Shown here piece by piece: positions 15,910 to 32,325 of a DNA stretch of 64,000 nt. Positions within the stretch are counted from its first letter, which is position 1; every line of letters starts with the position of its first letter. The translations under genes were made by a program, and so were the position numbers. This stretch comes from Acidobacteriota bacterium (GTDB lineage: Bacteria > Acidobacteriota > UBA890 > WLXD01), in NCBI GenBank assembly GCA_963666215.2, contig CAXWPL010000004.1:448001-512000 (forward strand), written 5' to 3'. Below the pieces are notes generated by a model. It did not search any database. It had not been told where the DNA came from and was given only the letters and a program-made list of their open reading frames with translations.

Positions 15910-16301
15910 ACACCCGCCGGTGGCAAGCGGGCAGCGATAGCACAGGTGTCGGCCGGTTGCGGGACGTCAAGCGCAAGCGCCGGGCGCGCCTCGCCGGTAA
16001 AGAACATCTCGTGGGAACTTCAGGGTTGTGAGCTCGCTGTTTTCCAGACTACTGTATGGAGTGATGCGTCGGCAGTGCCAGCCGCACAGCCCACCCCCCC
16101 CCCCCTACCCGTGCATGCAGTAGATCCAGCAAGGGGGGCGTGGGGCCATGGTTGAAAACGATTCCGTCGATAGGTCGCAGGCGAGTGTGGGCCCCGTTCG
16201 CCGCGCTTGGCACGCGCCGAGGCTGATCCGCCTCGACGGCCCCGCACGTAACACGGAGGGTACCGGAGCACTAATGCCCATCGAGATCGACAAGGGCGGC
16301 T

Positions 16302-17710
16302 GGGGATGTCACAGGCTCCGTTGAAAAAGGGTGACGGTGATCCGACCTCGATAGTGTGTCGGGGTCAATCCACTGGCATGGAGGATCACCGTCATGAGCA
16401 AGAGTCGCAGAACAGAGACAAGTAGGAAAGCGGAGCGCCAAGAGAACCCGCTCCTGGAGGCAGTGGTAGCGGCGCGATCGGATCTACGAGCGCTGGTCAT
16501 GGACGCGGGCTTCGGGGTGTTGGGTTCGCTGCTGGAAGAAGACCGGGCGGAGCTCTGCGGAGAGCGCTACGCGCGGTCACAGCAGCGGCGGGCGTACCGA
16601 CACGGCTACGACGAGGGCTCGCTGGTGATGGGCGGCCGGCGGGTCAAGGTACGCAAGCCGCGGGCTCGGAGCGTCGATGGCCAAGAGCTGCCGCTGCCGC
16701 ACTGGGAGAGGTTCAAGGCAACAGATCCGCTCGAAGAGCGCGCCGTAGAGCAGATCCTGTGCGGCGTCACGACGCGCAAGTACGAGCGCTCGTTAGAGCG
16801 GCTCGACGACGGGCGAGCTTCGTCGGGAACGAGTCGCTCGAGTGTGTCGCGGCGGTTCGTAGCGCGTACAGCCAAGCAGGTGCAGCAGTACCTGGCCCAA
16901 CCGCTCAATGAAGTGGACCTGCCGGTGCTGGTGATCGACGGCACGCACATGGGCAAGCACTTGTTGGTGATCGCCATGGGCATCGACGCGGACGGCGTCA
17001 AGCATGTGCTGGGTGTCGTAGAGGGCACCACGGAGAGCTCCCACGTGTGCCGGTCGCTGCTGCGGCAGTTGATCGAGCGCGGCATGCCCGTCGAACGGGC
17101 GCGGTTGGTGGTAATCGATGGCTCCAAGGGCCTCCGTAAAGCAGTGCGCGACACGTTCGGCGAGTGGGCCCTGATCCAGCGCTGCCGTGTCCACAAGATC
17201 AAGAATGTATTGGAGCATCTGCCAGGGCATATCCGGCCCTGGTTCGCAGCCAAGATCCGCAAGGCGTGGAAGGCGGAGACGGCCACGGCAGCGACCAAGC
17301 AGCTCGACGCCGTGGTCAAGGAGCTGGAGACCGATCACCCCGGTGCAGCGGCCTCGCTCAGAGAAGGAATGCAAGAGACGCTCACCGTCACTCGGCTCCG
17401 AGTTCAGGGGCCGCTGCTTCGAACGTTACGTTCAACGAATACGATCGAGAACCTGAACGGGACGATCAAACACGTCAGCCGCAACGTAAAGCGGTGGCGC
17501 TCCGGGAGCATGATCGTTCGATGGGCGGTTACTGCACTCATCGAGGCCGAGAGCAAGTTCCGGAGGGTTCGTGGCTACCGCGACATCGCCAAGCTCGATG
17601 CCGCACTCAACACCGCCGTCGACGTTCCCCTTGAGCAGGAGCGCCGTACTGCGTAACAATCCCCAACCACTTCACCGTCGCCTTAGTTCAACGGACGGTG
17701 GGACATCCCC
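16302..17710 (+). mobile_element. IS256-family insertion sequence
   Basis: About 39-bp imperfect terminal inverted repeats: GGGGATGTCACAGGCTCCGTTGAAAAAGGGTGACGGTGA on the left versus GGGGATGTCCCACCGTCCGTTGAACTAAGGCGACGGTGA (right end, reverse complement). No exact target duplication. Confidence 0.9.
16394..17656 (+). CDS. IS256 family (mutator-type) DDE transposase
   Basis: GVTTRKY, SRSSVSR, VIDGT, VIDGSKGL, QRCRVHKIKN, STNTIENLN. Confidence 0.95.
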   Translation: MSKSRRTETSRKAERQENPLLEAVVAARSDLRALVMDAGFGVLGSLLEEDRAELCGERYARSQQRRAYRHGYDEGSLVMGGRRVKVRKPRARSVDGQELPLPHWERFKATDPLEERAVEQILCGVTTRKYERSLERLDDGRASSGTSRSSVSRRFVARTAKQVQQYLAQPLNEVDLPVLVIDGTHMGKHLLVIAMGIDADGVKHVLGVVEGTTESSHVCRSLLRQLIERGMPVERARLVVIDGSKGLRKAVRDTFGEWALIQRCRVHKIKNVLEHLPGHIRPWFAAKIRKAWKAETATAATKQLDAVVKELETDHPGAAASLREGMQETLTVTRLRVQGPLLRTLRSTNTIENLNGTIKHVSRNVKRWRSGSMIVRWAVTALIEAESKFRRVRGYRDIAKLDAALNTAVDVPLEQERRTA

Positions 17711-18267
17711 GCGCAGCTGGACGACCGGCGAGGCCACGTACTGGGATAACTATGGGGCCCCGTCAGCGGGCCCAGCTAGACCGGCACGAGACACTGAAGA
17801 GCCTCGGCCCCCGCAACCTAGAGGCACCGCCCGACTCGCCGCCGGCAAAGCTTTCGGCCCGCTGATCGACAGCACTTCCGAGCACAGCGCGCTCGCGCTG
17901 CCCTTCCTGCGGGACCAAAACTTTCTCCAGTTCCTCCGAGGGCACTCATTCCATTTATTTCTTGTTAGGCGGGACCCCCCGTACGGTTCGGCGGTCGTCG
18001 GACCTAGCTAGCTGGCCAGCCAAGCGATCGTTGGCGCCCAGCCAAGCCAACGCACGCAGTGTCTCCCAAGCCTGACCAAGTCAGGCTCTCGCTCGTAGAG
18101 CGGGTCGCGCGCTGTACGAATCTCTCAATGGCCTCGTCGGGCAACCCTAGTCCCCTCCGAGCTGAAGTGCACCCCGAGGAATTCGAAACCTTTCTCGATG
18201 CGGCCGATAATATATCTTGCTCGGATGCCTGTTCATGCCCACGCCTCAGGATTGAGCTAAGACACAG

Positions 18268-21200
18268 ATGCCAAGCTCTCGCCGCCGGCGCCTTGTTCTC
18301 GGAGCCCTCGCGCTCCTGGCCGCGCTGGCGATCAACAAGTGGTCGCTCGAGATCCTGTTCTCGCGGGATCTCCGCATCACCGACCTAGTCACGCTCGGGA
18401 CCATCTGGGGGTTCCAGCTCGTTGCGACGGTTTTCGGCGCGTGGCTCATTATCGGTAGACCCCAGCTGCCACGACCGCTGCGCGTGGCAGTCGATCACAA
18501 AGTGCTCGGCCCAGCCCTGATGGTGGCACTTGTGGGCGCGACGGCTTTCGGCGCGTACGTCGATGTCACTGCCTACGGGCTCTTGCGAAACGACCGCGAG
18601 ATGCTGCGCCCGACCGCCGAGATGGTGATGGCCGAGGAGGTCATCGCCGAGCTGCGGCCGCACATGCGCGGCGTTGCCCGAGCCCTGCGCAACCTGAGCC
18701 TGCCGGATCGAAGCTCACCGGGACTCTGGAGCGACGAGGTGGAGGTCATCGATCTCGAGGCCGGACACACGCAGCTCATCGACAAGCGCCTCGCGCTGCA
18801 GCAGACGGCCATGCACGCCGCCGATCGCACGGCGGGTTCGCCGCAGGAGCTCGAGCTGTGGAGCCAACTGTTCGCGGACGTGGCGTGGATCGACAGCGCC
18901 GAAACCCATGTGGCGAGCGGTGAGTTCCTCGACGAGGCGCGCCTGCGGTTCCGGACCCTCGTCGACTTCGAGGCCTTGGCGCAACTGTTGGACGGCAGGT
19001 CGGCGACGTTGCGCGGCGAGATCCGGATCGGCTGGCAACGTGATGCCCCTGGAGCGGCCTGGCGCATCGAGCTCTTCGAGACGATCGAGCTGGAGCAGCT
19101 CGCCGCGGCATCGAGCCTGTTCCGCGACGTGATCCCCGAGGTGCTCCCCGACCCTGCCACTCTGCAAGCGGCAACCCGCTCGCTGCATGATGAGCTCACG
19201 GCGGACAGTATTCGCAGCAACGTGGCGGGAGAAAGGAACCGCTTTTCGATCGCGCCGACGCTCGTGCATCCGTCGGTTGCGGTCGTCGACATCGACGCCG
19301 ACGGCTGGGACGACCTCTACTTCATGCCGGCTTGGGGCAAGAATCTACTGCTCCGGAATCGCGGTGATGGCACGTTCGAAGACGTCGCGCCCGCACTGGG
19401 TCTCGACCTCGAAGGCACGGTGGCAGCCCTGTTCGCCGACTACGACAACGACGGCGACGCCGACGTCTTCATCTCGGCAGGACGGGACTCGGCTCGCTAC
19501 CTCCGCAACGATGCGGGTCGTTTCGTCGACCGTTCGGTGCTGGCCGACGGTGCGCCTCTGCCACGACAGGTCACATCGATGTCGGTGGCCGACTTCGACG
19601 GAGACGGCCTGCTCGACGTTTACATGGCTACCTACGCCGCCGGGCCGGTGGATCTGTCGGTTGGCGCGCGGCTTCTGACCTCGGCGCTGGAGGGCGCCGA
19701 ACGGCCCGGCGCCCTCAATCGTGGCGGGCCACCGAACGTGCTGCTGCGCAATGTGGACGGATCCAACTTCGAGCGTGTAGGCGAGGAGACGATTCCTACC
19801 GTACGGCGCTGGAGCTTCCAGGGAACCTGGGGCGATTTCGATGCCGACGGCGACGCGGATCTGTACGTTGCCAACGACTACGCGCCCGACAACTTGTTGG
19901 AGAACCGAGCCGGCCGGCTGGTCGACATCAGTGAGGCCGCGGGCATCGACCGGCGCGGCTTCGGTATGGGCGCGAGCTGGGGAGACTTCGATCAGGACGG
20001 CTGGCTCGATCTGTACATCACCAACATGTCGAGCCACTCGGGGGCCCGCATCACCGCCCGCTTCCCACAGCTCCCCGAGGCCTACAAGGAAGCGGCGCGC
20101 GGCAACTGGCTGCTGCGCAGCGTTACGAATCCAGAAACCGCTCCTTCGTCGCCGGTGAGGCGATTCGAGAAGGTCTCGTCGATCGACGGCACCGGCTACC
20201 CCGTACAAGAAGCGGGCTGGGGGTGGGGTTCGCAGTTCGTCGACCTCGACAACGACGGCGACCTCGACATCTACGCCCCGGCCGGGTACTACACGGCGCC
20301 GCCGTCGGTGGCGACCGATGTCGACACGTGACCCACGCTCTGGCGCTCGGTCGTGCGCGGGGCAGCGAATCACTCGAGGCGAGAGCCAGAAGAGAGACGC
20401 GGGATCGCCGTCCAGCTTCGCGAGGGCGCCTCGTATAGCGGCCGCGAGCGCAACCGCGTGTTCCTCAATCAGCTCGACGAGCCCGGTCGCGACTTCTGCG
20501 AGCTTGGCGGGGTGTCGGGAGCCGACGACATCGGCGACACGCGCTCGTTCTCCAGGCTCGACTACAACCGCGACGGTGCCCCCGACCTCGCGCTCGCCAA
20601 CCTCAATCGCCCGGTTACACGACTGCTGCGCAACGAGATCGCGCCCGACAAGCTCGGCGGCTACGTCGCCATTCGGCTCGAGGGAGGCAATCGGCAGGCG
20701 GCAACGAGCTCGGAATGGAGCACGCGCGACGCTTGTGGAGCACGAATCGAGATCGAGCGCAGCGACGACGTGCTACTGGTGCGCGAGCACCGCTGCGGCG
20801 AGGGTTTTGCCGGGCAGAATTCAAGCACCGTGATCGTCGGCCTTGGAGAGCACGACGCACACTCGCTGACCGTGACCTGGCCCTCCGGCAAGCAGCAGCG
20901 TTCGACCTCCGTGTCGGCCGGCGACCTGGTGACGGTCTACGAGAACCCGGAGCACGCCCCGACCGGCGATGCATTCGTTCACACGCGCTACGCCGTGCCG
21001 CTGCCAGCGTCGCCGCGCCGGGCGAAAGCGAACGATCTCGGCTCGCCTCCGCTGCCTGGGGCCGTTGTGCAAGAATTGACGCGAGGCGCGCGCCTGACGT
21101 TGCTGACCACCATGGCAACCTGGTGCATCGCCTGCCAGCACGACGTGCCACAGCTCGAGCTGCTGCTGGAGCGTTTCTCCGACAGCGAGCTCAACATTGT

Positions 21201-21439
21201 CGGCCTTCCCATCGAACCCACCGACGATGACGCCAAGCTCGCCGCCTGGGTGGAGCAGTTCCAACCACCCTACGAGCTCGTTACCGAGCTGACGGCCGAC
21301 GAGCGCACCGCGGTGATGGCGAGCGTTGCCGAGCTCACCGGCTACGTTTCTTGTTGACGAGCACGGCACGCTGATCGCCGTGCAGCTCGGTGTGCCAACC
21401 GTGTCCGACATCCGCCGACATCTGGGAATCAAACCGTGA
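18268..21439 (+). CDS. Membrane-anchored FG-GAP/CRTAC1-like + ASPIC/UnbV + thioredoxin-like (WCIAC) protein; in-frame TGA at 20329-20331 and frameshift near 21345
   Basis: Seven DxDxDGxxD-type repeats. ORFs 18268..20331 and 20353..21357 share a frame. ASPIC/UnbV motifs CGARIEI, CGEGFAGQNS, GLG, VTWPSG. The C-terminus ATFLVDEHG...LGIKP lies in another frame and ends at TGA 21437-21439, overlapping the next start. Confidence 0.85.
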
Positions 21440-22398
21440 TCGAGCTTTCTCGCGACGACTTCGCCCAGGCCTACGAGCGCGTTTCGCCGCACGTCTATCG
21501 CACACCGATGCTGACGTCGCGGCTGCTGAGCGAGCACACCGGCTTCGATATTCGGCTCAAGGCCGAGCTGTTCCAGCGCGGCGGCTCGTACAAGGTGCGC
21601 GGGCCGATGAACAAGTTCAGCTACCTGAGCGACGAGCAGAAGGCGCGCGGAGTGGTTTGCTCGTCGGCCGGCAACCACGCGCAGGGGGTGGCGCTGGCCG
21701 CCAAGCTGCACGGCATCCGAGCCGTGGTCTGCATGGCCGAGAACGCCACCCAGTCGAAGATCGACGCCACCGAAGGCTACGGTGCCGAGGTCGTGCTGCA
21801 CGGCCAGATTTGGGACGAGGCCAACGAAAAGGCGCTCGAGATTGTCGAGAAGGAAGGGCTGACCTACATCCATCCATTCGACGATCCGCAGCTCATCGCC
21901 GGTCAGGGCACCGTGGGCTGGGAGATCTACCACGACTGGCCGGAAGTCGAAGTGGCGATCGTGCCGATTGGCGGCGGCGGGCTGATTTCCGGCACCTCGA
22001 TGGCACTCAAGTCGCTCAACCCGGATATCCGCGTGATCGGCGTCGAGTCGTCGGGCGCGCCGGCGATGCAGCGCAGCGTCGAGGCCGGCGAGCTGGTGAC
22101 GCTCGAAGAGGTCGACTGTGTGATCGACGGCCTGCGCGTGAAGCGAGTGGGGCAGCACACCTTCTCGGTGGTACAGCGCTTCGTCGACGAGATCGTTACC
22201 CTCCCCGACGAGCAGATTTTCGAGGCCCTGATCTGGACGATGGCGCACTGCAAGGTAACGCCCGAGGGCGCGGCCGCGGCCCCAGTGGGCGCGTTGCTCC
22301 AAGGACTGATCGACGCGCCCGCCGGCTCGAAGGTGGTCTGCGTCCTGAGCGGCGGCAATCTGGGCCTGGACCAACTGCGCGGACTGAGCTGGAACTGA
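21436..22398 (+). CDS. PLP-dependent threonine/serine ammonia-lyase (catabolic type, no regulatory domain)
   Basis: KAELFQRGGSYKVRG, SAGNHAQG, HPFDDP..IAGQGT, PIGGGGLISG, SGGN. Confidence 0.93.
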   Translation: MIELSRDDFAQAYERVSPHVYRTPMLTSRLLSEHTGFDIRLKAELFQRGGSYKVRGPMNKFSYLSDEQKARGVVCSSAGNHAQGVALAAKLHGIRAVVCMAENATQSKIDATEGYGAEVVLHGQIWDEANEKALEIVEKEGLTYIHPFDDPQLIAGQGTVGWEIYHDWPEVEVAIVPIGGGGLISGTSMALKSLNPDIRVIGVESSGAPAMQRSVEAGELVTLEEVDCVIDGLRVKRVGQHTFSVVQRFVDEIVTLPDEQIFEALIWTMAHCKVTPEGAAAAPVGALLQGLIDAPAGSKVVCVLSGGNLGLDQLRGLSWN

Positions 22399-22580
22399 GC
22401 TCGGCCAGCTCGGGCACCTCGGTCCGGCTCCCCACCCGGAAACCGGATCGCCGCGCCCGTCTCTTTCTAAGAGAGGCCCCGTTCGCAGGCATTTGCACGC
22501 CGACCGGGCGAACGACGCAAGATCCCGAGAGCGCACAAAAGGCGCGGGGAAAACTTGTGATGACGTTATATGATGTCGGC

Positions 22581-22808
22581 ATGAGAACGATCGTGGAACT
22601 GCCCAACCGTCAGCTGGATGCGCTCGCGGCGATCTGTCGCGCGGAGAAAATCTCTCGTGCGGAGGCCATCCGCCGCGCTATCGATTCCTGGATCGAGACT
22701 GTCCCATCCGAAGCGGTCGAAGCCTTCGGACTATGGCGCGAACGCGGTATCGATGCGCTGCAGTACGAGGCCTCACTCCGGGCCGAGTGGGACCGGCCGG
22801 AGTCGTGA
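22581..22808 (+). CDS. Ribbon-helix-helix (CopG-like) antitoxin
   Basis: MRTIVELP...ISRAEAIRRAI...AFGLW...LRAEW; GTGA overlap with the PIN gene; TATGAT ends 6 nt before the ATG, so possibly leaderless. Confidence 0.88.
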   Translation: MRTIVELPNRQLDALAAICRAEKISRAEAIRRAIDSWIETVPSEAVEAFGLWRERGIDALQYEASLRAEWDRPES

Positions 22809-23170
22809 GAGTCGTCTTCGACACGAACGTGCTCATCGACTACCTCAACGGCGTTCCACAAGCGAAAGAGGAAATCGCACGCTACAAGAAACGGTATGTC
22901 AGCATCGCGACCTGGATGGAGGTGCTGGCCGGTGCCCGCGATGGCGCAGAGATGGACCTGCTGCGTGTCTTCCTTGCAGGTTTCGAGATTGTGGAGCTCG
23001 ACCGGCCGATCGCCGAAGCGGCGATTGAGCTACGGAGGACGCACCGTGTTCGACTTCCCGATGTCATCATTTGGGCGACGGCTCGAACGCTGGACGGGCT
23101 CCTCGTTACACGCAACACGCGCGACTTCCCGGAACGTGACCCCGACGTCCGCGTCCCCTATCGCCTGTAA
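22805..23170 (+). CDS. vapC: VapC/PIN-domain toxin
   Basis: VVFDTNVLIDYL, SIATWME, LPDVIIWATA, VTRNTRDF. Confidence 0.92.
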   Translation: MRVVFDTNVLIDYLNGVPQAKEEIARYKKRYVSIATWMEVLAGARDGAEMDLLRVFLAGFEIVELDRPIAEAAIELRRTHRVRLPDVIIWATARTLDGLLVTRNTRDFPERDPDVRVPYRL

Positions 23171-23191
23171 GTCGGTCCCTCGACTACGCGA

Positions 23192-25375
23192 ATGAACACG
23201 ACGCTTCCGTTCGATACTGGGCAGTCCCACGCCGACGTCATCGAGGTTGTGCGTCGGTACTGGGGCTTCGAGATGCTGCGGCCGCTGCAGGCCGAGGCGG
23301 TGCGTGCCGGACTCGATCGCCGCGACTCGCTGGTAGTGCTGCCGACCGGCGGTGGCAAGTCGCTGTGTTATCAGGTGCCGCCGTTGTTGGCCGGGCGAAC
23401 CGACATTGTGGTGTCGCCGCTGATCTCTCTGATGAAGGACCAGGTTGACGGCCTGCGCGCCAACGGATATCCGGCGGCCGCCGTGCACAGCGGGCTCGAC
23501 CGGCAAGAGCGCGCCGAGGCCGAGCGCTTTATTGCGTCGGGCGACTGTCGACTGGCGTTCGTGTCGCCGGAGCGCCTGGTGACATCGTGGTTTCTGCAGA
23601 CCGTCGAGCGACTGGGCATTCGCTCGTTCGCGGTGGACGAGGCGCATTGCATTAGCCACTGGGGTCACGATTTCCGGCCCGAGTACCGGCAGCTGGCGGT
23701 GCTCAAGGAACGCATCCCCGGCGCCAGCGTGCACGCCTACACCGCCACCGCGACGCCGCGCGTTCGCGACGACATCGTGGCGCAGCTCGGGCTCGAGGAC
23801 GCCCAGGTGCTGGTGGGACGCTTCGACCGGCCGAATCTCACCTACCGACTGGTGCCGCGGCTCGACCTGCGAGCCCAGGTGGAAGAGATTCTGGCTCGGC
23901 ATACGAACCAGGCGGCCATCATCTACTGCATCAGCCGCAAGGACACCGAGAAGCTCGCCGAGCATCTCATCAAGCGCGGTCACCGCGCCGCCTGCTACCA
24001 CGCCGGTCTCGAGCCAGCCGTTCGCCGCCGCACGCAGGAGGCGTTCACCAACGAACAGATGGACGTGGTCGCCGCGACGGTGGCGTTCGGCATGGGCATC
24101 GATCGCAGCGATGTGCGGTGCGTCATCCATGCCGCGATGCCCAAGTCGATCGAGCACTACCAACAGGAGACGGGCCGCGCGGGTCGTGATGGCCTCGAGG
24201 CCGAGTGCGTGCTGCTCAACTCTCCGGCCGACGCGGTGCGCTGGCGACAGTTGCTGGAGCGCAACGCGCAGGAAAACGTGCCGGCTGCGTCTGGCGTCTC
24301 GGGCATTTCCGATAGCGAGCCGCCGCCGCCCGACCTCTACGACGCCGACGACCCCGGAATCGCGCAGGAAGAGCCTCCGTATCCTTATGAAGAGCCTCAT
24401 GAAGAGCCTCTCGATGGAGGGCCTGTGGATGAAGGGCCTCTCGACCACGACGCGGCGATCCCGCGAGTTGTGGTGGCACGCGAGAGCAAGCTCAGGGCCG
24501 TGACGCCGCCAGCCACGGGGGTCGACCCACAGAAGGCCGCGCTGGAGCTGCTCGACCAGATGCGGCGCTTCTGCACCCCCGGCACCTGCCGCCACCAGGC
24601 GCTGTCGGAGTACTTCGGCCAGACGTACGAGCCCCCGTGCAGCTCCGAGGCTATCGACACCCACGCCGACGGCGATGACGACGACGCTGGCGTCCAGATC
24701 GCCGAAGGCTGTGGCGCCTGCGACGTTTGCCTCGGGGAAACCGACGGCTGGGTGGACGGCACTCGCGACGCCCAGATGGTGCTGTCTTGCGTGGCTCGTC
24801 TCGGCCAGATGGGCACCGCGTACGGCATGAACCACGTGGTCGATGTGCTGCGCGGCGCCGACACCCAGTCGATCCGTTCGCGCGGCCACAACACACTCTC
24901 GACCTGGGGCGTGATGTCGGCAAAGGGACGCAAGGAGTTGCTGCATCTGACCTTCCAGCTCATCGACCAGGCGGTGCTCGAGCGCAGCGACGGCGAGTAC
25001 CCGGTGCTGACGCTCAACGACCGCTCGCTCGAGGTACTGCGCGGCGAGCGCACCGTGCGGCTCGCCCCGGTGCGCGTCCGAGCCGCCAAGACCTCTGCGC
25101 GTGACGCGGCGTCGTGGCACGGCGTCGATGTCGATCTGTTCGAGCGCCTGCGCGGACTTCGCACCGAGATCGCGCGCGCCCGCGACGTGCCGCCCTACCT
25201 CATCTTCAACGACGCCAGCCTGCGCGACATGGCCAGCAGCCGTCCCGAGACTCCACAAGAATTCCTCGCCATCCACGGCGTGGGCGACAAGAAGCTTGCC
25301 GACTTCGGTGAGACTTTCCTCGCCTGCATTGCCGGAGCGCCCGAGTCGATCGAGACCGCCAGCGACACCGCCTAG
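23192..25375 (+). CDS. recQ: ATP-dependent DNA helicase RecQ with RQC and HRDC domains and a long acidic insertion
   Basis: PTGGGKSLCYQ, VDEAHCISHWGHDFRPEY, TATA, ATVAFGMGID, QETGRAGRDG, CR...CGACDVC, HRDC (PPYLIFND). Confidence 0.95.
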   Translation: MNTTLPFDTGQSHADVIEVVRRYWGFEMLRPLQAEAVRAGLDRRDSLVVLPTGGGKSLCYQVPPLLAGRTDIVVSPLISLMKDQVDGLRANGYPAAAVHSGLDRQERAEAERFIASGDCRLAFVSPERLVTSWFLQTVERLGIRSFAVDEAHCISHWGHDFRPEYRQLAVLKERIPGASVHAYTATATPRVRDDIVAQLGLEDAQVLVGRFDRPNLTYRLVPRLDLRAQVEEILARHTNQAAIIYCISRKDTEKLAEHLIKRGHRAACYHAGLEPAVRRRTQEAFTNEQMDVVAATVAFGMGIDRSDVRCVIHAAMPKSIEHYQQETGRAGRDGLEAECVLLNSPADAVRWRQLLERNAQENVPAASGVSGISDSEPPPPDLYDADDPGIAQEEPPYPYEEPHEEPLDGGPVDEGPLDHDAAIPRVVVARESKLRAVTPPATGVDPQKAALELLDQMRRFCTPGTCRHQALSEYFGQTYEPPCSSEAIDTHADGDDDDAGVQIAEGCGACDVCLGETDGWVDGTRDAQMVLSCVARLGQMGTAYGMNHVVDVLRGADTQSIRSRGHNTLSTWGVMSAKGRKELLHLTFQLIDQAVLERSDGEYPVLTLNDRSLEVLRGERTVRLAPVRVRAAKTSARDAASWHGVDVDLFERLRGLRTEIARARDVPPYLIFNDASLRDMASSRPETPQEFLAIHGVGDKKLADFGETFLACIAGAPESIETASDTA
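24368..24445 (+). repeat. Degenerate tandem repeat (GAAGAGCCTC core, 5 copies) encoding EEPP/EEPH/EEPL/GGPV/EGPL inside recQ
   Basis: gaagagcctccgtatccttatgaagagcctcatgaagagcctctcgatggagggcctgtggatgaagggcctctc. Confidence 0.8.
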
Positions 25376-25387
25376 CGTCGACTCTGG

Positions 25388-25707
25388 CTAGCGCCGGCCG
25401 ATCGCGAACAGGTGCCGGTCGCCGCGCACGTACATGCGGCCGTTGGCGATCGCGGGCGACGCCCAGAGCGACTCGCCCATCGAGTTGGTCGCCAGCACCT
25501 CGTGCTCGGGCCCGGCGCGGACCACGAACATGTCGCCGTCTTGCCCCGACAGCACGATGTTGCTGCCGAACGCAACGGGTGACGCTACAAAGCGCGTCGG
25601 CAGTGGCACGCGGCCGCCGTGCCGCTGATCGCGATCGCCGGAATGGCAACAAGCACCGCCGCCACAGCAGCAACGAGCGCGGCGCCGTTGGAACGGCTGA
25701 AACTCAT
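25388..25707 (-). pseudogene. PQQ-binding-like beta-propeller protein reduced to its signal peptide plus last ~75 aa
   Basis: RBS GAGGGG + ATG at 25707 gives MSFSRSNGAALVAAVAAVLVAIPAIAISGTAA, joined out of frame at about 25615 to GGRVPLPTRFVASPVA...ASPAIANGRMYVRGDRHLFAIG. Confidence 0.78.
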
Positions 25708-25879
25708 GCCCCTCTGTTCGTATCGGATCACACGCTTCCTCCCGAGCCGCTGAGCTCCCGTTTCGACCTCTTTCGATCAATCTCGATCGACTGCTATTGT
25801 CGAGTCTCGACGCGACCGCGGAACAGTACTTGATTCGAACCTACCCGTCGTCGGATCCGATTCGGACGGCCTCGCTCGA

Positions 25880-27046
25880 TCAGCGCCCGCCTGCGCTTCG
25901 TGTTCTGACGCGCTCCAGCAGCTCCTCAACCAGCTCGGTTTGGCGATCCCCGCTGAACCGCGTGGTCGCCAGGCGGCGGGCCTCTTGGCCCATCGTGCGA
26001 ACCGTCGCCCGGTCGGCGGCGAGAGACGCGATGGATCTTGCTAGTTTCTCGATGTCGCCCGACGGGTAGAAGCGCGCGGCACCGGTGAGATGCTCGCGCA
26101 TGTACTCGATATCAACGGTGACAATGGGCAGACCCGCGGCGAGAAACTCGAACAGCTTCAACGGCGACCAGTACCAGCCCAGTTGTAGCGCCGGGTGCGC
26201 GGCCAGATTGAATGGCGCCAAGCCCACGTCGGCCGCCGCCAAGCGCGCCGGCACCTCGAGATGAGGAACGGCGCCGGGAAACTCGACACGATCCTCCACA
26301 CCCGCCGAACGAGCGACGGCTCGGGCGGCGTCCCAGCGTGGGCCGTGGCCGAGGAACGAAACCTGGATGTCGACGCCGAGCTCCACACACCTGGCCACAG
26401 CCCGCACCAGATCTTCGGCGCCGTGCCAGGCGCGAAAACTGCTCAGGTACACGCAACGCAACGGTCCGTCGTTACTGGTCGGCGGCCCGGGCTGGAATCG
26501 CTCGGTGTCGGCGCCATTGACAACGTCGACGTAGCCCTCCCGATACTCCTCCGGCATCACCAGCGCCGCCTGTCCGTAGAACGCCGAGGCCATCTCCATC
26601 TGCGCACGACGCCATCGCGCGATGGGCCGTATGAGAGAAAGCGCGTCGAGGCGATCGCGCCACGAGCCCGGGTACGGTCGCGCCGGCGTATGCACTTCGG
26701 CCACGGCCGGAACGCCCAGCGCGCGCGCAGCCAGCAACCCCGTACCACCGAAAGCATGGAAACGCTCGATGACGATCTCGGGCCCGACCCGCTCGGCAAT
26801 GCGCCGGACCTGTTTTCGTGCGGTCCACTGCAGCTGGTCCATCGCCAGCCACGGTCGTACCGGATAAAGGCGAATGCCCTGCAACCAGTCCGCGGTCTCG
26901 GCGGTCGTGCCAGGCTCGCCTGCTTGGGCAACGAGATGCAGCTCGTGCCCGCGCCGAACCAATCCGCGCGCCAGCTCGATGGTGTGAACGCTGCCGCCGT
27001 GCGAGCCCGGAATCGGAATCCCGGTGGTCACGTAGAGAATGCGCAA
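25880..27046 (-). CDS. Glycosyltransferase family 4
   Basis: LRILYV...GGSVH, RGHELH, NGAD.ERF, WHG, SPLKLFEFLAAGLPIV; TTG start 2 nt after the upstream stop. Confidence 0.92.
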   Translation of the reverse strand: MRILYVTTGIPIPGSHGGSVHTIELARGLVRRGHELHLVAQAGEPGTTAETADWLQGIRLYPVRPWLAMDQLQWTARKQVRRIAERVGPEIVIERFHAFGGTGLLAARALGVPAVAEVHTPARPYPGSWRDRLDALSLIRPIARWRRAQMEMASAFYGQAALVMPEEYREGYVDVVNGADTERFQPGPPTSNDGPLRCVYLSSFRAWHGAEDLVRAVARCVELGVDIQVSFLGHGPRWDAARAVARSAGVEDRVEFPGAVPHLEVPARLAAADVGLAPFNLAAHPALQLGWYWSPLKLFEFLAAGLPIVTVDIEYMREHLTGAARFYPSGDIEKLARSIASLAADRATVRTMGQEARRLATTRFSGDRQTELVEELLERVRTRSAGGR

Positions 27047-27048
27047 GT

Positions 27049-28395
27049 TCAGCGGTGCTGCGGATTCGGGCGATCCGGGCGGCTCAGGGGACCGCCGTCC
27101 CAGTTCTGCGCACTCGAGATGTTCGGCATGCCGTGGTCGGCGCCGTTCCATCCCTGGAAGCCCTCCATGCGGAACGCCCAGAAGCCGCTGGTGGAGTCGG
27201 AAACCACAATCAACCCGTCGGCGTTGCGCACGTCGACGCCGAAGGCGCCGTTGAAGACGTCGGTGAAATCGGTATTCAACGACCCGAGGTAGGTGTCGTA
27301 GTAGGCGACGGTCTGCGGATTCTTCGGGTCGGCGAGCGTGAAGACTTGCAGCCCGTCGACGTAGCCCGAGACGAACACGTAGGGCCAGCGCACCTCGTGG
27401 TTATGAACCAGATGGCGCCAGTCGGCGGTCCAGGCCGAGATCGGCGTTCTGATGTTGCTGGTCTCGCCATCGAGCGCCGGCTTGAGGTCGAAAATCCGCA
27501 GCGGCGCGTATCGGTATTCGGTTTCGCCAATGGCATAGCGACCATCGGGCGACGGCGTGAAAGTGTGACCCCATTGCACGCCGCTGATCCCGGTGAGCGA
27601 GATCCGCAACGCCGGGTTCTCGAGGTCGGTCACGTCGTAGATGAAGTAGCCGCCCGTGCCGCCGCCGTAGAAGCGATCTTCGCCGCTGTCGGGGTGATGG
27701 CCGACGTAGAGGTCGTGGTAGCCCTGGAACGGGCCGTCGGTGCTACCCACGGGAACCTTGGCGACGAGCGCATCGTCCATGTCGCCGGCGATCACATGCC
27801 CCAGATCGTAGACGTAGGCGTACGGCCCGCCGACGGTAGTGAACAGCAGCACACGATCGTTGGTGTGCTTGTAGATGAAGATATTGTGGAAGCCGCCTGG
27901 GTACTCGGGGGCGCGCAGGCGAGCCACCTCTGTGACGCTGTCGGGGTCGGGCAACCCCGTGACGTCGAGCACCACCGCTCCCATGTCGGCGTCGGGACCG
28001 CCCTGCCCGAACTGGGTCGACTGCACCACGTAGTAACGCCCCTGCCATTTGAAATGCTTGACGTCCATGCCGCCCGCGCCGACGTGCAGGTCCTGATCCT
28101 CGATGCGCCAGCTGTAAATGACGCGCGGCTGGGCGGGGTCGTGGAGATCGATGATGTCCATGCCTCGCTCGCCGCCGCCGAGAATGTTGGCGCGACCGAT
28201 ATAGGCGTAGGGCCGCGACAGCTCCTGCTCGACGTCAATGTCGGTGACGCTGATGCGCGCGCCGAGCGGCAGGTGGGCGACAACCTCGAGATTGTCGCTG
28301 CCGCGCTTCTCGGCAGTCCACTGGGCGTGGGCAACCCAGCCACCGCTGAGGCTGGAAACAATCAGGAGCACGAACACACGCAACGGGATTCTCAC
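27049..28395 (-). CDS. Secreted LVIVD-repeat (choice-of-anchor B-like) beta-propeller protein
   Basis: GGAGG RBS + GTG, signal peptide, repeats GMDIIDLHDPAQP, AVVLDVT, FIYDVTDLENP, GLQVFTLADPKNP; periodic His (FHN, YHD, GHT, VHN). Confidence 0.8.
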   Translation of the reverse strand: MRIPLRVFVLLIVSSLSGGWVAHAQWTAEKRGSDNLEVVAHLPLGARISVTDIDVEQELSRPYAYIGRANILGGGERGMDIIDLHDPAQPRVIYSWRIEDQDLHVGAGGMDVKHFKWQGRYYVVQSTQFGQGGPDADMGAVVLDVTGLPDPDSVTEVARLRAPEYPGGFHNIFIYKHTNDRVLLFTTVGGPYAYVYDLGHVIAGDMDDALVAKVPVGSTDGPFQGYHDLYVGHHPDSGEDRFYGGGTGGYFIYDVTDLENPALRISLTGISGVQWGHTFTPSPDGRYAIGETEYRYAPLRIFDLKPALDGETSNIRTPISAWTADWRHLVHNHEVRWPYVFVSGYVDGLQVFTLADPKNPQTVAYYDTYLGSLNTDFTDVFNGAFGVDVRNADGLIVVSDSTSGFWAFRMEGFQGWNGADHGMPNISSAQNWDGGPLSRPDRPNPQHR

Positions 28396-30258: not shown

Positions 30259-30930
30259 GCTCGGTCAAGGAGCGGGGACCGCGCCGTAGGCCACCTGCGC
30301 CGCTAGGGACAGTTCATGATGACCGGGTTGTTCAACGGGGCGAACGGCGACGGCGTCTTGGCCCGGCTTTGAACCCTTCGCCTGTCTCCGGTGGCCGTAT
30401 CGGTGTAGTTGATGACCATCTGGGTCGTGACATCCGCGGCGAAGATCGAGAGATAGAAGCCGGGATTGTTGGTATCGCGACAGCGGTTCTTCGCCTCGAT
30501 GCGAACGTCCCCGGCCGTCCCTAGGCCCGGGCGCGCGAACGTCCCCGCGGCGAAGCCATTTCGCTTGACAACGCCTGTTTGGTCGGTCGCGTCGAACGGA
30601 TCGGTCCAGTCCATCGCGACTTCGAAGCGGTCCCCAAAGAGGCAGATCGTCTCGGAGTCAGGTGTGCAAGTCTCGGCTTGCCCTGCCGTGCATCCCACCC
30701 AGGCCTTGTCGAGCGTCGCGTTCCCGGACACTTCGAAGTCGGCGTGAAGCGTGCCTCCAGTACCCTCGACAAGAAACTCGCGGCCAAGGGCCTCCCTGCC
30801 AATGACTTCCCTGGGGAGATCCAGATCCCAGGACGCGTAGCCGCCGCGGTTGACGCGCGTTCGCCTAGAAAGGGGAACCGGCAGCGCGAAGATCACGTTG
30901 CCGTCATCGTCGAGAAGCTCGCCGACTAGT

Positions 30931-31973
30931 TGTGTTTTCTAAGTAGGTTGTTCACATCGGGGCTCACTTCTGAGATCAATGGGGTTGTTCAAAAGACTCC
31001 ACGACCTCAGAAGGAGCGCCCGATGCAGCTGCATGGTAACGCCCGCACGACGCCGTATATACGCCGAGAGATGGTCCGCCGAGTCCGGGAGCGGGCGGAG
31101 CCCGTGACGGAAACGGCGGCGGCGCTCGGCGTGTCGGCTCGAACGGTTTACAAGTGGCTGGATAGATACGAGCGAGAAGGTGAGGCCGGGCTGCTCGATC
31201 GATCAAGCCGGCCGACGTGCTGTCCGCACGCAACAAGCGCTGGAGTTGTGAGGCAGATCGACAAGCTACGTCGGCGGCGACTGACGGCCTGGCAGATCAG
31301 CCGAAGGTTGGCTGTGCCGCGCTCGACCGTCTCGGCGTGGCTGAAGCGGCTCGGACTCGCCAAGCTTGATGCGCTCGAGCCCAAGCCCGAGATCGTTCGC
31401 TACGAGTACGAGCACCCCGGTGACCTACTGCACCTGGATACGAAGAAACTGGCCCGTATCCGGCGACCTGGACACCGCATCCACGGCGACCGCTCCAAGC
31501 GGGCCTACGGCGTCGGCTGGGAGAACGCCCACGTCGCTATCGACGATCACTCTCGGGTGGCGTACGTCGAAGTGCTGCCCGCCGAAGACCAACACACCTG
31601 CACAGCGTTCCTGCAGCGAGCCGTCGAGCACTTCGCTTCGATGGGAGTAGCGGTGCGCCGAGTGATGACAGACAACGGGCCTGGCTACGTCTCGAAGCGC
31701 TTCAATCGCCTATGCCATCAACTCGAGATCCGGCACATTTACACCCGGCCCTACACCCCCAGAACCAACGGCAAAGCCGAACGCTTCATCCGCACACTCA
31801 AGGAGCAGTGGGCCTACGGCACCTGCTACCAGACCTCAGCTCGACGTACTCGAGCTCTACGGCCCTGGCTCAACCACTACAATCGTCACCGCCCCCACGC
31901 CGGCATCGGCATGACACCGCCGATCGCTCGGCTCTCAGGGGTGAGTTCGTGAACAACCTACCTAGAACTCACA
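30931..31973 (+). mobile_element. IS481-family insertion sequence with 6-bp target duplication ACTAGT
   Basis: TGT...ACA ends; 25-bp IR TGTGTTTTCTAAGTAGGTTGTTCAC versus TGTGAGTTCTAGGTAGGTTGTTCAC; ACTAGT at 30925-30930 and 31974-31979. Confidence 0.96.
31023..31952 (+). CDS. IS481 family transposase
   Basis: AAGGAG RBS; HGNARTTP, GLLDRSSRP, HLDTKKL, IDDHSR, MTDNG, PRTNGKAERF, YNRHRPH. Confidence 0.95.
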   Translation: MQLHGNARTTPYIRREMVRRVRERAEPVTETAAALGVSARTVYKWLDRYEREGEAGLLDRSSRPTCCPHATSAGVVRQIDKLRRRRLTAWQISRRLAVPRSTVSAWLKRLGLAKLDALEPKPEIVRYEYEHPGDLLHLDTKKLARIRRPGHRIHGDRSKRAYGVGWENAHVAIDDHSRVAYVEVLPAEDQHTCTAFLQRAVEHFASMGVAVRRVMTDNGPGYVSKRFNRLCHQLEIRHIYTRPYTPRTNGKAERFIRTLKEQWAYGTCYQTSARRTRALRPWLNHYNRHRPHAGIGMTPPIARLSGVSS

Positions 31974-32325
31974 ACTAGTGTGAAACGAATGTTCCCTTTC
32001 GGCGCACCTTCACTCATGGCGCGGGCCGTACAACGGATGATCGCGTCGTCTTCGTCGGGCACCCACCCCAGGCTGACGGCGAGGTCGTCGTCGGGAAAGT
32101 CGAATGCGCGAACCGGGCCACCGTGGACGTCTCTGTCGATGCCGGCTTCCCGGAAGGAGCCGTCGGCGACGAGGTTCGACGTGCCGCTCAGCAGCGTCAG
32201 CCCGGCGACGGCGAACCCAACCCACGGAAAACGACGCATATTTCCTCCTGCGGTTGGTGGCGCCAGCAGAAAGACACCAGGCACTATATCTGCGTGGGTC
32301 GCGCCAACTCCAGAGATGCCGCGCG

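What the first reader, a model, noticed from the sequence alone, without database searches (positions are those of the whole stretch)
18268..21439. Candidate selenoprotein: FG-GAP/CRTAC1-ASPIC/UnbV-thioredoxin fusion split by an in-frame UGA
Seen: the 687-aa FG-GAP ORF stops at TGA 20329-20331 and the same frame stays open (...APAGYYTAPPSVATDVDT-UGA-PTLWRSVV...SYSGRERNRVFLN) into another FG-GAP repeat, an ASPIC/UnbV domain and a TlpA-like WCIAC domain. The downstream ORF has no evident RBS. A possible stem-loop follows the UGA (CCCACGC 20332-20338 with GCGCGGG 20355-20361; apical loop containing GGU about 15-20 nt downstream). Established: bacterial Sec insertion needs an in-frame UGA plus an immediately downstream SECIS hairpin. 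Inference: a roughly 1050-aa membrane-anchored beta-propeller redox protein with Sec and its own CxxC domain. My recollection that homologs carry D-x-[C/S/stop]-x-x-x-W at this site is unverified. Caveats: the window has other nonsense changes, and GC-rich DNA folds easily.
Basis: partly seen in the sequence, partly recalled or inferred. Interest (0 to 1): 0.78.

Follow-up and report, generated by a model that had tools for sequence, protein, structure and literature searches.

The report
Selenocysteine codon in CRTAC1-like propeller gene
The stop codon that seems to cut this large exported repeat protein in two is almost certainly an inherited selenocysteine codon of a widespread protein family that selenoprotein catalogues do not list, but this copy also carries a real frameshift that breaks its thioredoxin-like tail.

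Summary
ORF 18268-20331 ends at TGA 20329-31 and the frame stays open to 21357. The TGA is not a chance break. It sits at the same column, four codons before a conserved Trp-Arg, in 18 of 18 homologous loci of related genomes, in the genome's own intact paralog, and in the four closest homologs, two of them from Verrucomicrobiales. Eighty-two of 119 database relatives end exactly one residue before it. The genome has tRNA-Sec, selA, selB and a TGA-containing selD. A hairpin with a GGUC loop starts 17 nt after the UGA; it is conserved, with compensatory changes in relatives. The window's copy has one U.U mismatch. Contigs from four studies reproduce the sequence exactly. They therefore also confirm a frameshift at 21317-21322 that cuts off the last third of the TlpA-like CxxC domain, so this copy, next to an IS element, may be decaying. 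The family is missing from a 2026 catalogue of 119 selenoprotein families. It appears only as candidates in a 2016 supplementary table.

The parts
16301..17711 (+). IS element just upstream of the gene. It holds a Mutator-family transposase ORF at 16394-17656 and has about 35 further copies in the genome.
   Evidence: blastn of the window against its own genome; Pfam Transposase_mut, E 4.7e-46
18268..20328 (+). Part of the gene before the Sec codon: a hydrophobic N-terminal anchor, a region shared only with the Verrucomicrobiales-type homologs, and the FG-GAP beta-propeller (about 19288-20307).
   Evidence: The anchor is inferred from the sequence only.
20329..20331 (+). In-frame TGA read as selenocysteine (residue 688), in the motif DVDT-U-PTLWRSVV.
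   Evidence: Identical in contigs of 4 runs.
20343..20358 (+). SECIS-type hairpin: arms 20343-48 and 20353-58, apical loop GGUC 20349-52, starting 17 nt after the UGA. U20347 and U20354 form a mismatch.
   Evidence: Model constraints are quoted from the Fig. 2 legend of PMC13188914.
20332..21354 (+). Same-frame continuation after the Sec codon: last propeller blade, UnbV_ASPIC domain (20731-20928), and the first two thirds of a TlpA-like domain (21082-21309) with WCIAC at 21121-21135.
21317..21322 (+). Six-base interval in which the reading frame shifts from frame 0 to frame +1 (a frameshift mutation).
   Evidence: A frame +1 stop lies at 21314-16. The conserved ALP motif starts in frame +1 at 21323. 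The sequence is identical in contigs of 4 runs.
21323..21439 (+). Rest of the TlpA-like domain, now out of frame (ALPSSPATFLVDEHGTLIAVQLGVPTVSDIRRHLGIKP, stop 21437-39). The stop overlaps the next gene's GTG as GTGA.
21355..21357 (+). The stop codon (TGA) that now ends frame 0. The read-through product is 1029 residues.
21436..22398 (+). Next gene, a PLP-dependent enzyme (PALP). No evident functional link to the finding.

Best explanation
TGA 20329-31 is an inherited selenocysteine codon. SelB and tRNA-Sec decode it, directed by the hairpin 14-30 nt downstream. The gene encodes an exported, membrane-anchored protein with four parts: a CRTAC1-like FG-GAP beta-propeller, the Sec residue, an ASPIC/UnbV domain and a C-terminal TlpA-like CxxC domain.

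Shown:
- conservation of the codon and the hairpin;
- the Sec machinery;
- the domain architecture;
- the reality of the sequence in independent contigs.

Inferred: in a confident model of a relative, Sec is the first residue of an alpha-helix that follows a strand, as redox-active Cys/Sec residues typically are. I infer that Sec is a catalytic nucleophile or metal ligand outside the cytoplasm. I also infer that the fused TlpA-like domain keeps it reduced, itself fed by a CcdA/DsbD-type membrane reductase.

This copy: it is closest to Verrucomicrobiales genes, lies beside an IS element, has a U.U mismatch in the hairpin, and has a real frameshift that removes the TlpA fold from the cis-proline loop onward. 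It is therefore probably a decaying or partly disabled copy. An intact paralog lies at G000:C5, with its TGA at 921002-921004.
For: Codon conservation:
- TGA at the same column in 18 of 18 relatives' loci that reach it, in the own paralog, and in L122, L135, L042, L043, L053, L125 and L180.
- 82 of 119 database relatives end exactly one residue before the column.
- Downstream domains stay in frame in all of them. 14 of 16 scanned relatives carry a Redoxin/AhpC-TSA domain.

Sec machinery:
- tRNA-Sec at 67.8 bits, called SeC(tca) by ARAGORN; selA 518 bits; selB 340 bits; selD 341 bits with one in-frame TGA.
- selA is over its cut-off in 36 of 41 related genomes and in 3 of 3 outside-phylum genomes that hold a TGA form.

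Hairpin:
- Window type: 29 of 30 cells paired, 2 pairs with compensatory changes.
- Main type: 86.7% of 128 cells paired, 3 compensatory pairs, covariation reached by 0 of 500 shuffles.
- Folding energy downstream of the codon: median -14.3 kcal/mol in 18 TGA genes, -6.9 in 21 others, -11.0 in the window.

Sequence reality: contigs of 4 runs from 4 studies match 20242-21696 with 0 differences and 0 gaps.

Structure: model of relative L028 has pLDDT 91.2 and pTM 0.91, and the helix 546-557 starts at U546. The closest folds are murine CRTAC1 9etn and ResA/TlpA.
Against: - The window's hairpin has a U.U mismatch next to the loop-closing pair. The core is only -5.2 kcal/mol, and -8.8 with outer pairs. 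An 81-nt fold is not better than shuffles.
- The window-type covariation rests on 5 sequences, and 28 of 500 shuffles reach it.
- TGA-free homologs rarely have Cys at the column. With the window as query: E 98, C 1 of 119. With a relative as query: S 11, R 5, C 4 and others among 33. This is unusual for a catalytic Sec.
- The same gene carries a real frameshift and the genome is IS-rich, so expression of this copy is not assured.
- No RNA or protein data exist, and no selenium incorporation has been shown.
- The redox mechanism and the TlpA-to-Sec electron path are inference only.
Confidence: 0.8

Rival explanations
1. The TGA is an ordinary nonsense mutation in a decaying gene and translation stops there.
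For: The same gene has a real frameshift. It lies beside an IS element in a genome with dozens of IS copies. The window's hairpin is imperfect.
Against: A random nonsense change would have to hit, out of about 1000 codons, exactly the column that is TGA in every close homolog and in many distant ones. It would also have to keep a hairpin of the same architecture and register as in L042, L043, L122 and L135.
Confidence: 0.05
2. There are two separate genes: a propeller protein ending at TGA, and a second protein restarted downstream, for example at GTG 20353.
For: Annotation pipelines call it so: P0099 is the 687-aa ORF, and 82 database relatives are annotated as ending at the column. An ORF 20353..21357 exists.
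Against: In all 18 relatives and the closest homologs the downstream part is in the same frame, with the alignment running straight through the TGA. TGA-free homologs are single proteins. The TGA falls inside a conserved motif (D544, S547, W550 and R551 are nearly invariant). In the model it lies at a helix start within a folded region.
Confidence: 0.03
3. The UGA is read through, but by something other than Sec, such as near-cognate Trp or Cys insertion or a reassigned code.
For: No direct evidence of selenium. The column tolerates many residues in homologs.
Against: There is only one in-frame TGA per roughly 950-1000 codons, and several homologs end at TGA as a true stop. The Sec machinery is complete. 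The hairpin has the spacing and G-first loop of the bacterial SECIS model. Every genome with a TGA form that I checked has selA, apart from one 69%-complete bin and one match truncated at a contig end.
Confidence: 0.04
4. The TGA and the frameshift are assembly or sequencing errors.
For: The assembly has indel-type differences between its two copies of this region: 16 differences over 11.3 kb, 8 of them single-base indels.
Against: None of those 16 differences lies inside 18268-21439. Contigs of four runs from four studies match 20242-21696 (X9: 20249-21696) with 0 differences and 0 gaps. One run may be the source sample, so this is at least three independent confirmations.
Confidence: 0.02

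Closest known systems
Bacterial SelB/SECIS-dependent selenoprotein genes (archetype E. coli fdhF; bSECIS consensus model as quoted in PMC13188914)
   Same: An in-frame UGA followed by an in-ORF hairpin. The loop is 3-4 nt with G first (GGUC or GUS), the spacing is 17-21 nt, and the genome has the full selA/B/C/D set. From memory only, the fdhF apical loop is also GGUC.
   Different: The protein is an exported beta-propeller, not a cytoplasmic redox enzyme or a thioredoxin-fold protein. There is no UxxC or CxxU motif around Sec. Homologs mostly have Glu or Ser rather than Cys at the site.
[quoted passage not shown] 2016, PMC4807772, S9 Table)
   Same: The same domain content, each candidate split into two gene calls by an in-frame TGA. 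Four rows are listed, and SECIS is marked present in three (I saw the supplementary table rows and main-text passages only).
   Different: They are listed only as candidates in a supplement, in another phylum. No TlpA fusion, column analysis or covariation is described in what I saw. I did not compare their sequences with the window.
CRTAC1 (cartilage acidic protein 1; murine structure 9etn)
   Same: FG-GAP propeller plus ASPIC/UnbV domain. Sequence match E 1.9e-25. Fold match E 1.2e-28, TM 0.73 normalised by the target. Both were obtained with relatives: L024 and the L028 model.
   Different: The animal protein has no Sec, no TlpA-like domain and no membrane anchor of this kind. Its function gives no clue to a redox role.
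TlpA/ResA-type extracytoplasmic thiol-disulfide reductases, and enzymes fused to such a domain (for example the N-terminal domain of Neisseria MsrA/B, PDB 2fy6, 2jzr, 2h30)
   Same: The W-C-x-x-C motif and the fold. Relatives match TlpA 1jfu at E 4e-19. The idea of a reductase domain fused to the enzyme it recycles comes from established knowledge of PilB/MsrAB.
   Different: In the window the domain is cut by the frameshift before the cis-proline loop, and its Pfam score is below the cut-off. Its partner within the protein is not shown.

Membership tests
Bacterial selenoprotein gene (SECIS/SelB-dependent UGA recoding) | In-frame UGA with conserved coding sequence continuing in the same frame | tested here: met
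Bacterial selenoprotein gene (SECIS/SelB-dependent UGA recoding) | UGA conserved at the homologous column in other genomes | tested here: met
   18 of 18 relatives' loci; own paralog; L042, L043, L122, L135, L053, L125 and L180; 82 of 119 database proteins end at column -1
Bacterial selenoprotein gene (SECIS/SelB-dependent UGA recoding) | Homologs with Cys at the Sec position | tested here: inconclusive
   Cys forms exist (1 of 119; 4 of 33) but are a minority. Glu and Ser dominate.
Bacterial selenoprotein gene (SECIS/SelB-dependent UGA recoding) | [quoted passage not shown] | tested here: met
   Loop GGUC, spacing 17 nt, 5 pairs plus one U.U mismatch, -8.8 kcal/mol with outer pairs. The same hairpin is fully paired in the 4 closest homologs, with 2 compensatory pairs. 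The fit is borderline in this copy.
Bacterial selenoprotein gene (SECIS/SelB-dependent UGA recoding) | Genome encodes tRNA-Sec, SelA, SelB and SelD | tested here: met
Bacterial selenoprotein gene (SECIS/SelB-dependent UGA recoding) | Selenium actually incorporated at the UGA | not testable with these tools
   Needs 75Se labelling or mass spectrometry.
CRTAC1 / ASPIC-UnbV FG-GAP propeller family | FG-GAP repeats plus UnbV_ASPIC domain above Pfam cut-offs, and a CRTAC1-like fold | tested here: met
   Pfam: FG-GAP_3 119.8 bits, FG-GAP 68.5 bits, UnbV_ASPIC 53.3 bits. The fold was tested on the model of relative L028, with 9etn_A as top hit.
TlpA/ResA-like thiol-disulfide oxidoreductase domain | W-C-x-x-C active-site motif | tested here: met
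   WCIAC at residues 952-956, nt 21121-21135
TlpA/ResA-like thiol-disulfide oxidoreductase domain | Complete thioredoxin fold in one reading frame, including the cis-proline loop | tested here: not met
   A frameshift at 21317-22 puts ALP...FLVDEHG... in frame +1. AhpC-TSA scores 20.1 bits, below the cut-off of 26. Relatives meet this feature.

The most novel reading that the evidence does not exclude
The family is a new class of exported selenoenzyme. A selenocysteine at a helix N-terminus on a CRTAC1-type beta-propeller acts as catalytic nucleophile or metal ligand outside the cytoplasm and is recycled in cis by a fused TlpA-like reductase. Unlike nearly all known selenoproteins, the site interchanges with Glu, Ser and Asp rather than mainly Cys. 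That would point to chemistry, or an evolutionary route to Sec, not yet described.
Probability: 0.3. Interest if true: 0.8.

Novelty: new member of a known kind. Interest (0 to 1): 0.6.

Why it matters
If the reading is right, a large exported protein family found in Acidobacteriota-type genomes, Verrucomicrobiota and Planctomycetota is routinely annotated as two truncated genes, such as 'VCBS repeat-containing protein'. It is also missing from the catalogues used to estimate how microbes use selenium. It would add a selenoprotein with a non-thioredoxin, beta-propeller scaffold that works outside the cytoplasm, and would give the enigmatic bacterial CRTAC1-like proteins a first functional handle: redox or metal chemistry at a defined residue. 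This copy also shows a selenoprotein gene caught in probable decay, with a weakened SECIS, a frameshift and an IS neighbour, while a paralog stays intact.

Tried and rejected
- Folding energy alone: the 81-nt fold has z = +0.91, which is uninformative in 65% GC DNA.
- My strict perfect-stem bSECIS scan gave only -2.7 kcal/mol for the window. Allowing the single mismatch, as the relatives justify, was needed.
- The search for related loci in genome contigs and metagenome contigs found no ortholog above 42% identity, so no dN/dS or close-ortholog test was possible.
- Complex prediction, with the propeller-ASPIC part and the TlpA domain of the Cys-form protein P0126 as two chains, returned 'no answer'. 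This is no evidence either way.
- No RNA holder was listed among the public runs, so expression is untested.
- The gene neighbourhood offers no functional link: S9 peptidase, transposase, PLP enzyme, RecQ and a glycosyltransferase, with no CcdA/DsbD nearby.
- The selA versus TGA-form correlation does not discriminate, because selA is nearly universal in the relatives (36 of 41).
- The careful tree search did not finish, so I used the quick IQ-TREE tree.
- Literature searches for FG-GAP, VCBS, ASPIC, UnbV or CRTAC1 together with selenoprotein or selenocysteine found nothing relevant, until an earlier scan note pointed to PMC4807772.
- One Pfam call failed because a reference I gave contained stops. 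I repeated it without that reference.
Full report
**1. The observation**

The window has an ORF 18268..20331 (+, 687 aa) that ends at TGA 20329-20331. Read with TGA=U, the frame stays open to a second TGA at 21355-57, giving 1029 residues with U at 688. Pfam finds five FG-GAP_3 stretches, FG-GAP, and UnbV_ASPIC (residues 822-887). It also gives a weak AhpC-TSA match (939-1014, 20.1 bits, below the cut-off of 26) that contains WCIAC.

After about 21317 the thioredoxin-like domain continues in frame +1 (ALPSSPATFLVDEHGTLIAVQLGVPTVSDIRRHLGIKP, stop 21437-39). That stop overlaps the GTG of the next gene as GTGA. A frame +1 stop lies at 21314-16, and the conserved ALP motif begins in frame +1 at 21323. 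The frame change is therefore confined to 21317-21322.

**2. Is the sequence real?**

The assembly has 5 contigs, 4.65 Mb and 65% GC. It holds a second copy of window 16317-27632 at the end of contig C1. The two copies differ at 16 places, half of them single-base indels, but none lies inside the gene.

Logan contigs of four public runs from four studies cover 20242-21696 (one run: 20249-21696) with 0 other letters and 0 gaps. They cover 19500-20269 with 0-1 differences. One of these runs may be the source sample. Even so, both the TGA and the frameshift are properties of the DNA and not assembly errors.

**3. The Sec machinery**

The genome has:
- a tRNA-Sec (67.8 bits, over the Rfam cut-off; ARAGORN calls it SeC with anticodon tca);
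- selA (518 bits);
- selB (340 bits, or 366.8 with its C-terminal piece);
- selD (341 bits), which itself contains one in-frame TGA.

**4. The same column in homologs**

*Related genomes.* A search of 41 related genomes with the read-through protein found homologs in 38. I aligned residues 601-800 of the window protein to the 20 loci returned. All 18 loci from other genomes that reach the column (L023-L040) have a stop exactly where the window has it, and the codon is TGA in every one. L041 gave only a 27-residue match that does not reach the column, and L022 is the window's own second copy. The motif is ...DT-U-S.FWRHVV...; the window has DVDT-U-PTLWRSVV. In both, U lies four residues before the Trp.

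*Own paralog.* The genome has an intact paralog on C5 (TGA at 921002-921004, MDDT-U-STFWRHVV) with a complete WATWCVPC...VPLSVLLDD domain.

*Database relatives.* I used a relative (L024) as query. Of the 119 database proteins returned, 82 end exactly one residue before the column. These are annotated as truncated 'VCBS repeat-containing protein' or 'hypothetical protein', and the named ones come from Acidobacteriota. Thirty-three have a residue at the column: S 11, R 5, C 4, L 2, E 2, A 2, D 2, I 2, V 1, T 1, M 1. Four align only partly.

With the window itself as query, the top database hits are ~1030-1092-aa 'CRTAC1 family' proteins; the few that carry a source name are from Verrucomicrobiota or Nitrospinaceae. 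Of these, 119 of 120 align at the column: E 98, L 8, S 3, F 3, M 2, V 1, A 1, D 1, C 1 and one gap. The one that does not align is the window's own 687-aa ORF.

That search cannot return TGA-containing genes as whole proteins. The DNA searches fill the gap. Of 160 further loci, 27 aligned at the column under my criteria, and 6 of them have TGA there (L122, L135, L042, L053, L125, L180). A seventh, L043, was misregistered by one codon and also has TGA.

*The closest homologs.* L122 (42% identity over residues 119-1017), L135, L042 (Verrucomicrobiales MAG, 1034 aa, U640) and L043 (Roseibacillus MAG, 1044 aa, U674) are the window's closest homologs (L122, L042 and L043 also align with its N-terminal region from residue ~118). 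L042 and L043 carry a C-terminal ATWC..C...ALP....D..G domain.

*Tree.* A quick maximum-likelihood tree (the careful search did not finish) places the window, with support 100, beside the TGA-free members of this Verrucomicrobiota-type clade. U occurs in at least five separate places on the tree. A chance nonsense mutation at exactly this column can be dismissed.

**5. The hairpin**

The bacterial SECIS model is quoted in the Fig. 2 legend of PMC13188914, which I read in section 5. It asks for:
- a 3-9 nt apical loop with G in its first two positions;
- a 4-16 bp stem;
- 16-37 nt between the UGA and the loop;
- MFE <= -7.5 kcal/mol.

*Main type.* The hairpin is GGCGCCAC-GUS-GUGGCGUC, with the loop 18 nt after the UGA. 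On 16 sequences, 86.7% of 128 cells pair and three pairs show changes on both sides (C-G to A-U or G-U; A-U to U-A; C-G to G-C or G-U). No shuffle out of 500 reaches the covariation score, and slid registers score far lower.

*Window type.* Five sequences share a 6-bp stem (columns 15-20 with 25-30) and the loop GGUC (L122: AGUU), 17 nt after the UGA. Twenty-nine of 30 cells pair, and two pairs show compensatory changes. With only five sequences, 28 of 500 shuffles do as well. The single unpaired cell is the window's U20347.U20354. Its core hairpin is -5.2 kcal/mol against -7.4 to -9.4 in the other four. With outer pairs it reaches -8.8, and the local MFE is -11.0.

*Comparison with TGA-free homologs.* The 36 nt from +9 fold to a median of -14.3 kcal/mol in 18 TGA genes and -6.9 in 21 loci scored as non-TGA. 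One of those 21 is the misregistered L043.

**6. What the protein is**

Relatives are 925-1014 aa. They have an N-terminal signal or anchor, an N-terminal domain, the propeller, U, ASPIC/UnbV and a Redoxin/AhpC-TSA domain. Fourteen of 16 scanned relatives have that last domain; L039 and L040 lack it.

By sequence, the nearest solved structures are CRTAC1 9etn (E 1.9e-25) and TlpA 1jfu (E 4e-19). An AlphaFold2 model of relative L028, built on a 38-sequence alignment, has pLDDT 91.2 and pTM 0.91. By Foldseek its best matches are murine CRTAC1 and ResA/TlpA.

In the model, U546 is the first residue of helix 546-557. D544, S547, W550 and R551 around it are nearly invariant, even in TGA-free homologs. 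From established knowledge, a strand-loop-Sec/Cys-helix position is typical of redox-active residues, and TlpA-type domains are extracytoplasmic reductants.

I therefore infer an exported enzyme whose Sec is a nucleophile or metal ligand kept reduced by the fused CxxC domain. The residues seen in TGA-free homologs (Glu, Ser, Asp, Cys) are mostly potential ligands or nucleophiles, which fits either role. None of this mechanism is shown.

**7. This copy**

- It lies 557 bp downstream of a Mutator-family IS that has about 35 copies in the genome.
- Its closest homologs are from another phylum.
- Its SECIS has a mismatch.
- Its TlpA domain is cut before the cis-proline loop.

I read it as a probably acquired copy in early decay or with reduced function, while the C5 paralog is intact. 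Whether it is still expressed is open.

The genome is probably an acidobacterium. I infer this from a database protein 99% identical to L024, which comes from a genome of the same order and is named Acidobacteriota.

In genome G001 selA starts about 460 nt after the TGA-form gene. In G007 it lies 3.7 kb downstream. This is a weak extra link.

**8. What is known**

Table 1 of the 2026 review PMC13188914 lists 119 prokaryotic selenoprotein families or subfamilies. I read section 7, parts 1 and 2. It contains no FG-GAP, VCBS, CRTAC1 or ASPIC entry.

The same words are absent from the main texts of PMC12013277, PMC13326102 and PMC2398784 (word searches only). NCBIfam has no model for the propeller part. 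Full-text searches gave nothing relevant.

Eight earlier reports of this scan reached the same reading in other genomes. They are not independent evidence. I could not see supplements of bioRxiv preprints or the BSepDB database itself, and either could list the family.

**9. Verdict**

The in-frame TGA is an inherited Sec codon (about 0.8-0.85) in a member of a widespread selenoprotein family that catalogues omit and annotation splits in two. The window's copy is damaged in its TlpA-like tail. It is a new member of a known kind of system, of solid but not exceptional interest.

Noticed in passing
window 16301-17711 and 30922-31978: Two IS elements occur in very many near-identical copies across the 5 contigs: roughly 35 copies of the first, which holds a Mutator-family transposase, and roughly 45 of the second. 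The genome is IS-rich.
   Followed up: partly
window 16317-27632 = G000:C1:763048-774370: An 11.3-kb stretch that includes the gene is present twice, the second time at the very end of contig C1, at 99.86% identity. Half of the 16 differences are single-base indels. This is either a real IS-flanked duplication or assembly redundancy.
   Followed up: partly
G000:C5, about 919.8-922.9 kb (minus strand), TGA at 921002-921004: An intact main-type paralog of the same selenoprotein family, with a complete TlpA-like domain.
   Followed up: yes
G000:C2:219892-220839 (L017): The genome's selD has one in-frame TGA, so it is itself a selenoprotein gene.
   Followed up: no
G001:C1:1154259-1158321 (L032) and G007:C9:31329-38751: In two genomes of one related genus, selA lies directly downstream (about 460 nt) or 3.7 kb downstream of the TGA-form CRTAC1-like gene on the same strand.
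   Followed up: partly
L035 (G027): One TGA-form relative is 1369 aa long and carries TPR repeats after the TlpA-like domain. TPR/peroxiredoxin/FG-GAP/ASPIC fusions also occur among the TGA-free database hits (P0111-P0121).
   Followed up: no
P0122, P0124, P0125, P0171 (database proteins): Some very close full-length relatives of the TGA forms have Val, Arg, Leu or Ser at the column. Arg, Leu and Ser can each be reached from TGA by one base change, which suggests recent losses of Sec.
   Followed up: no
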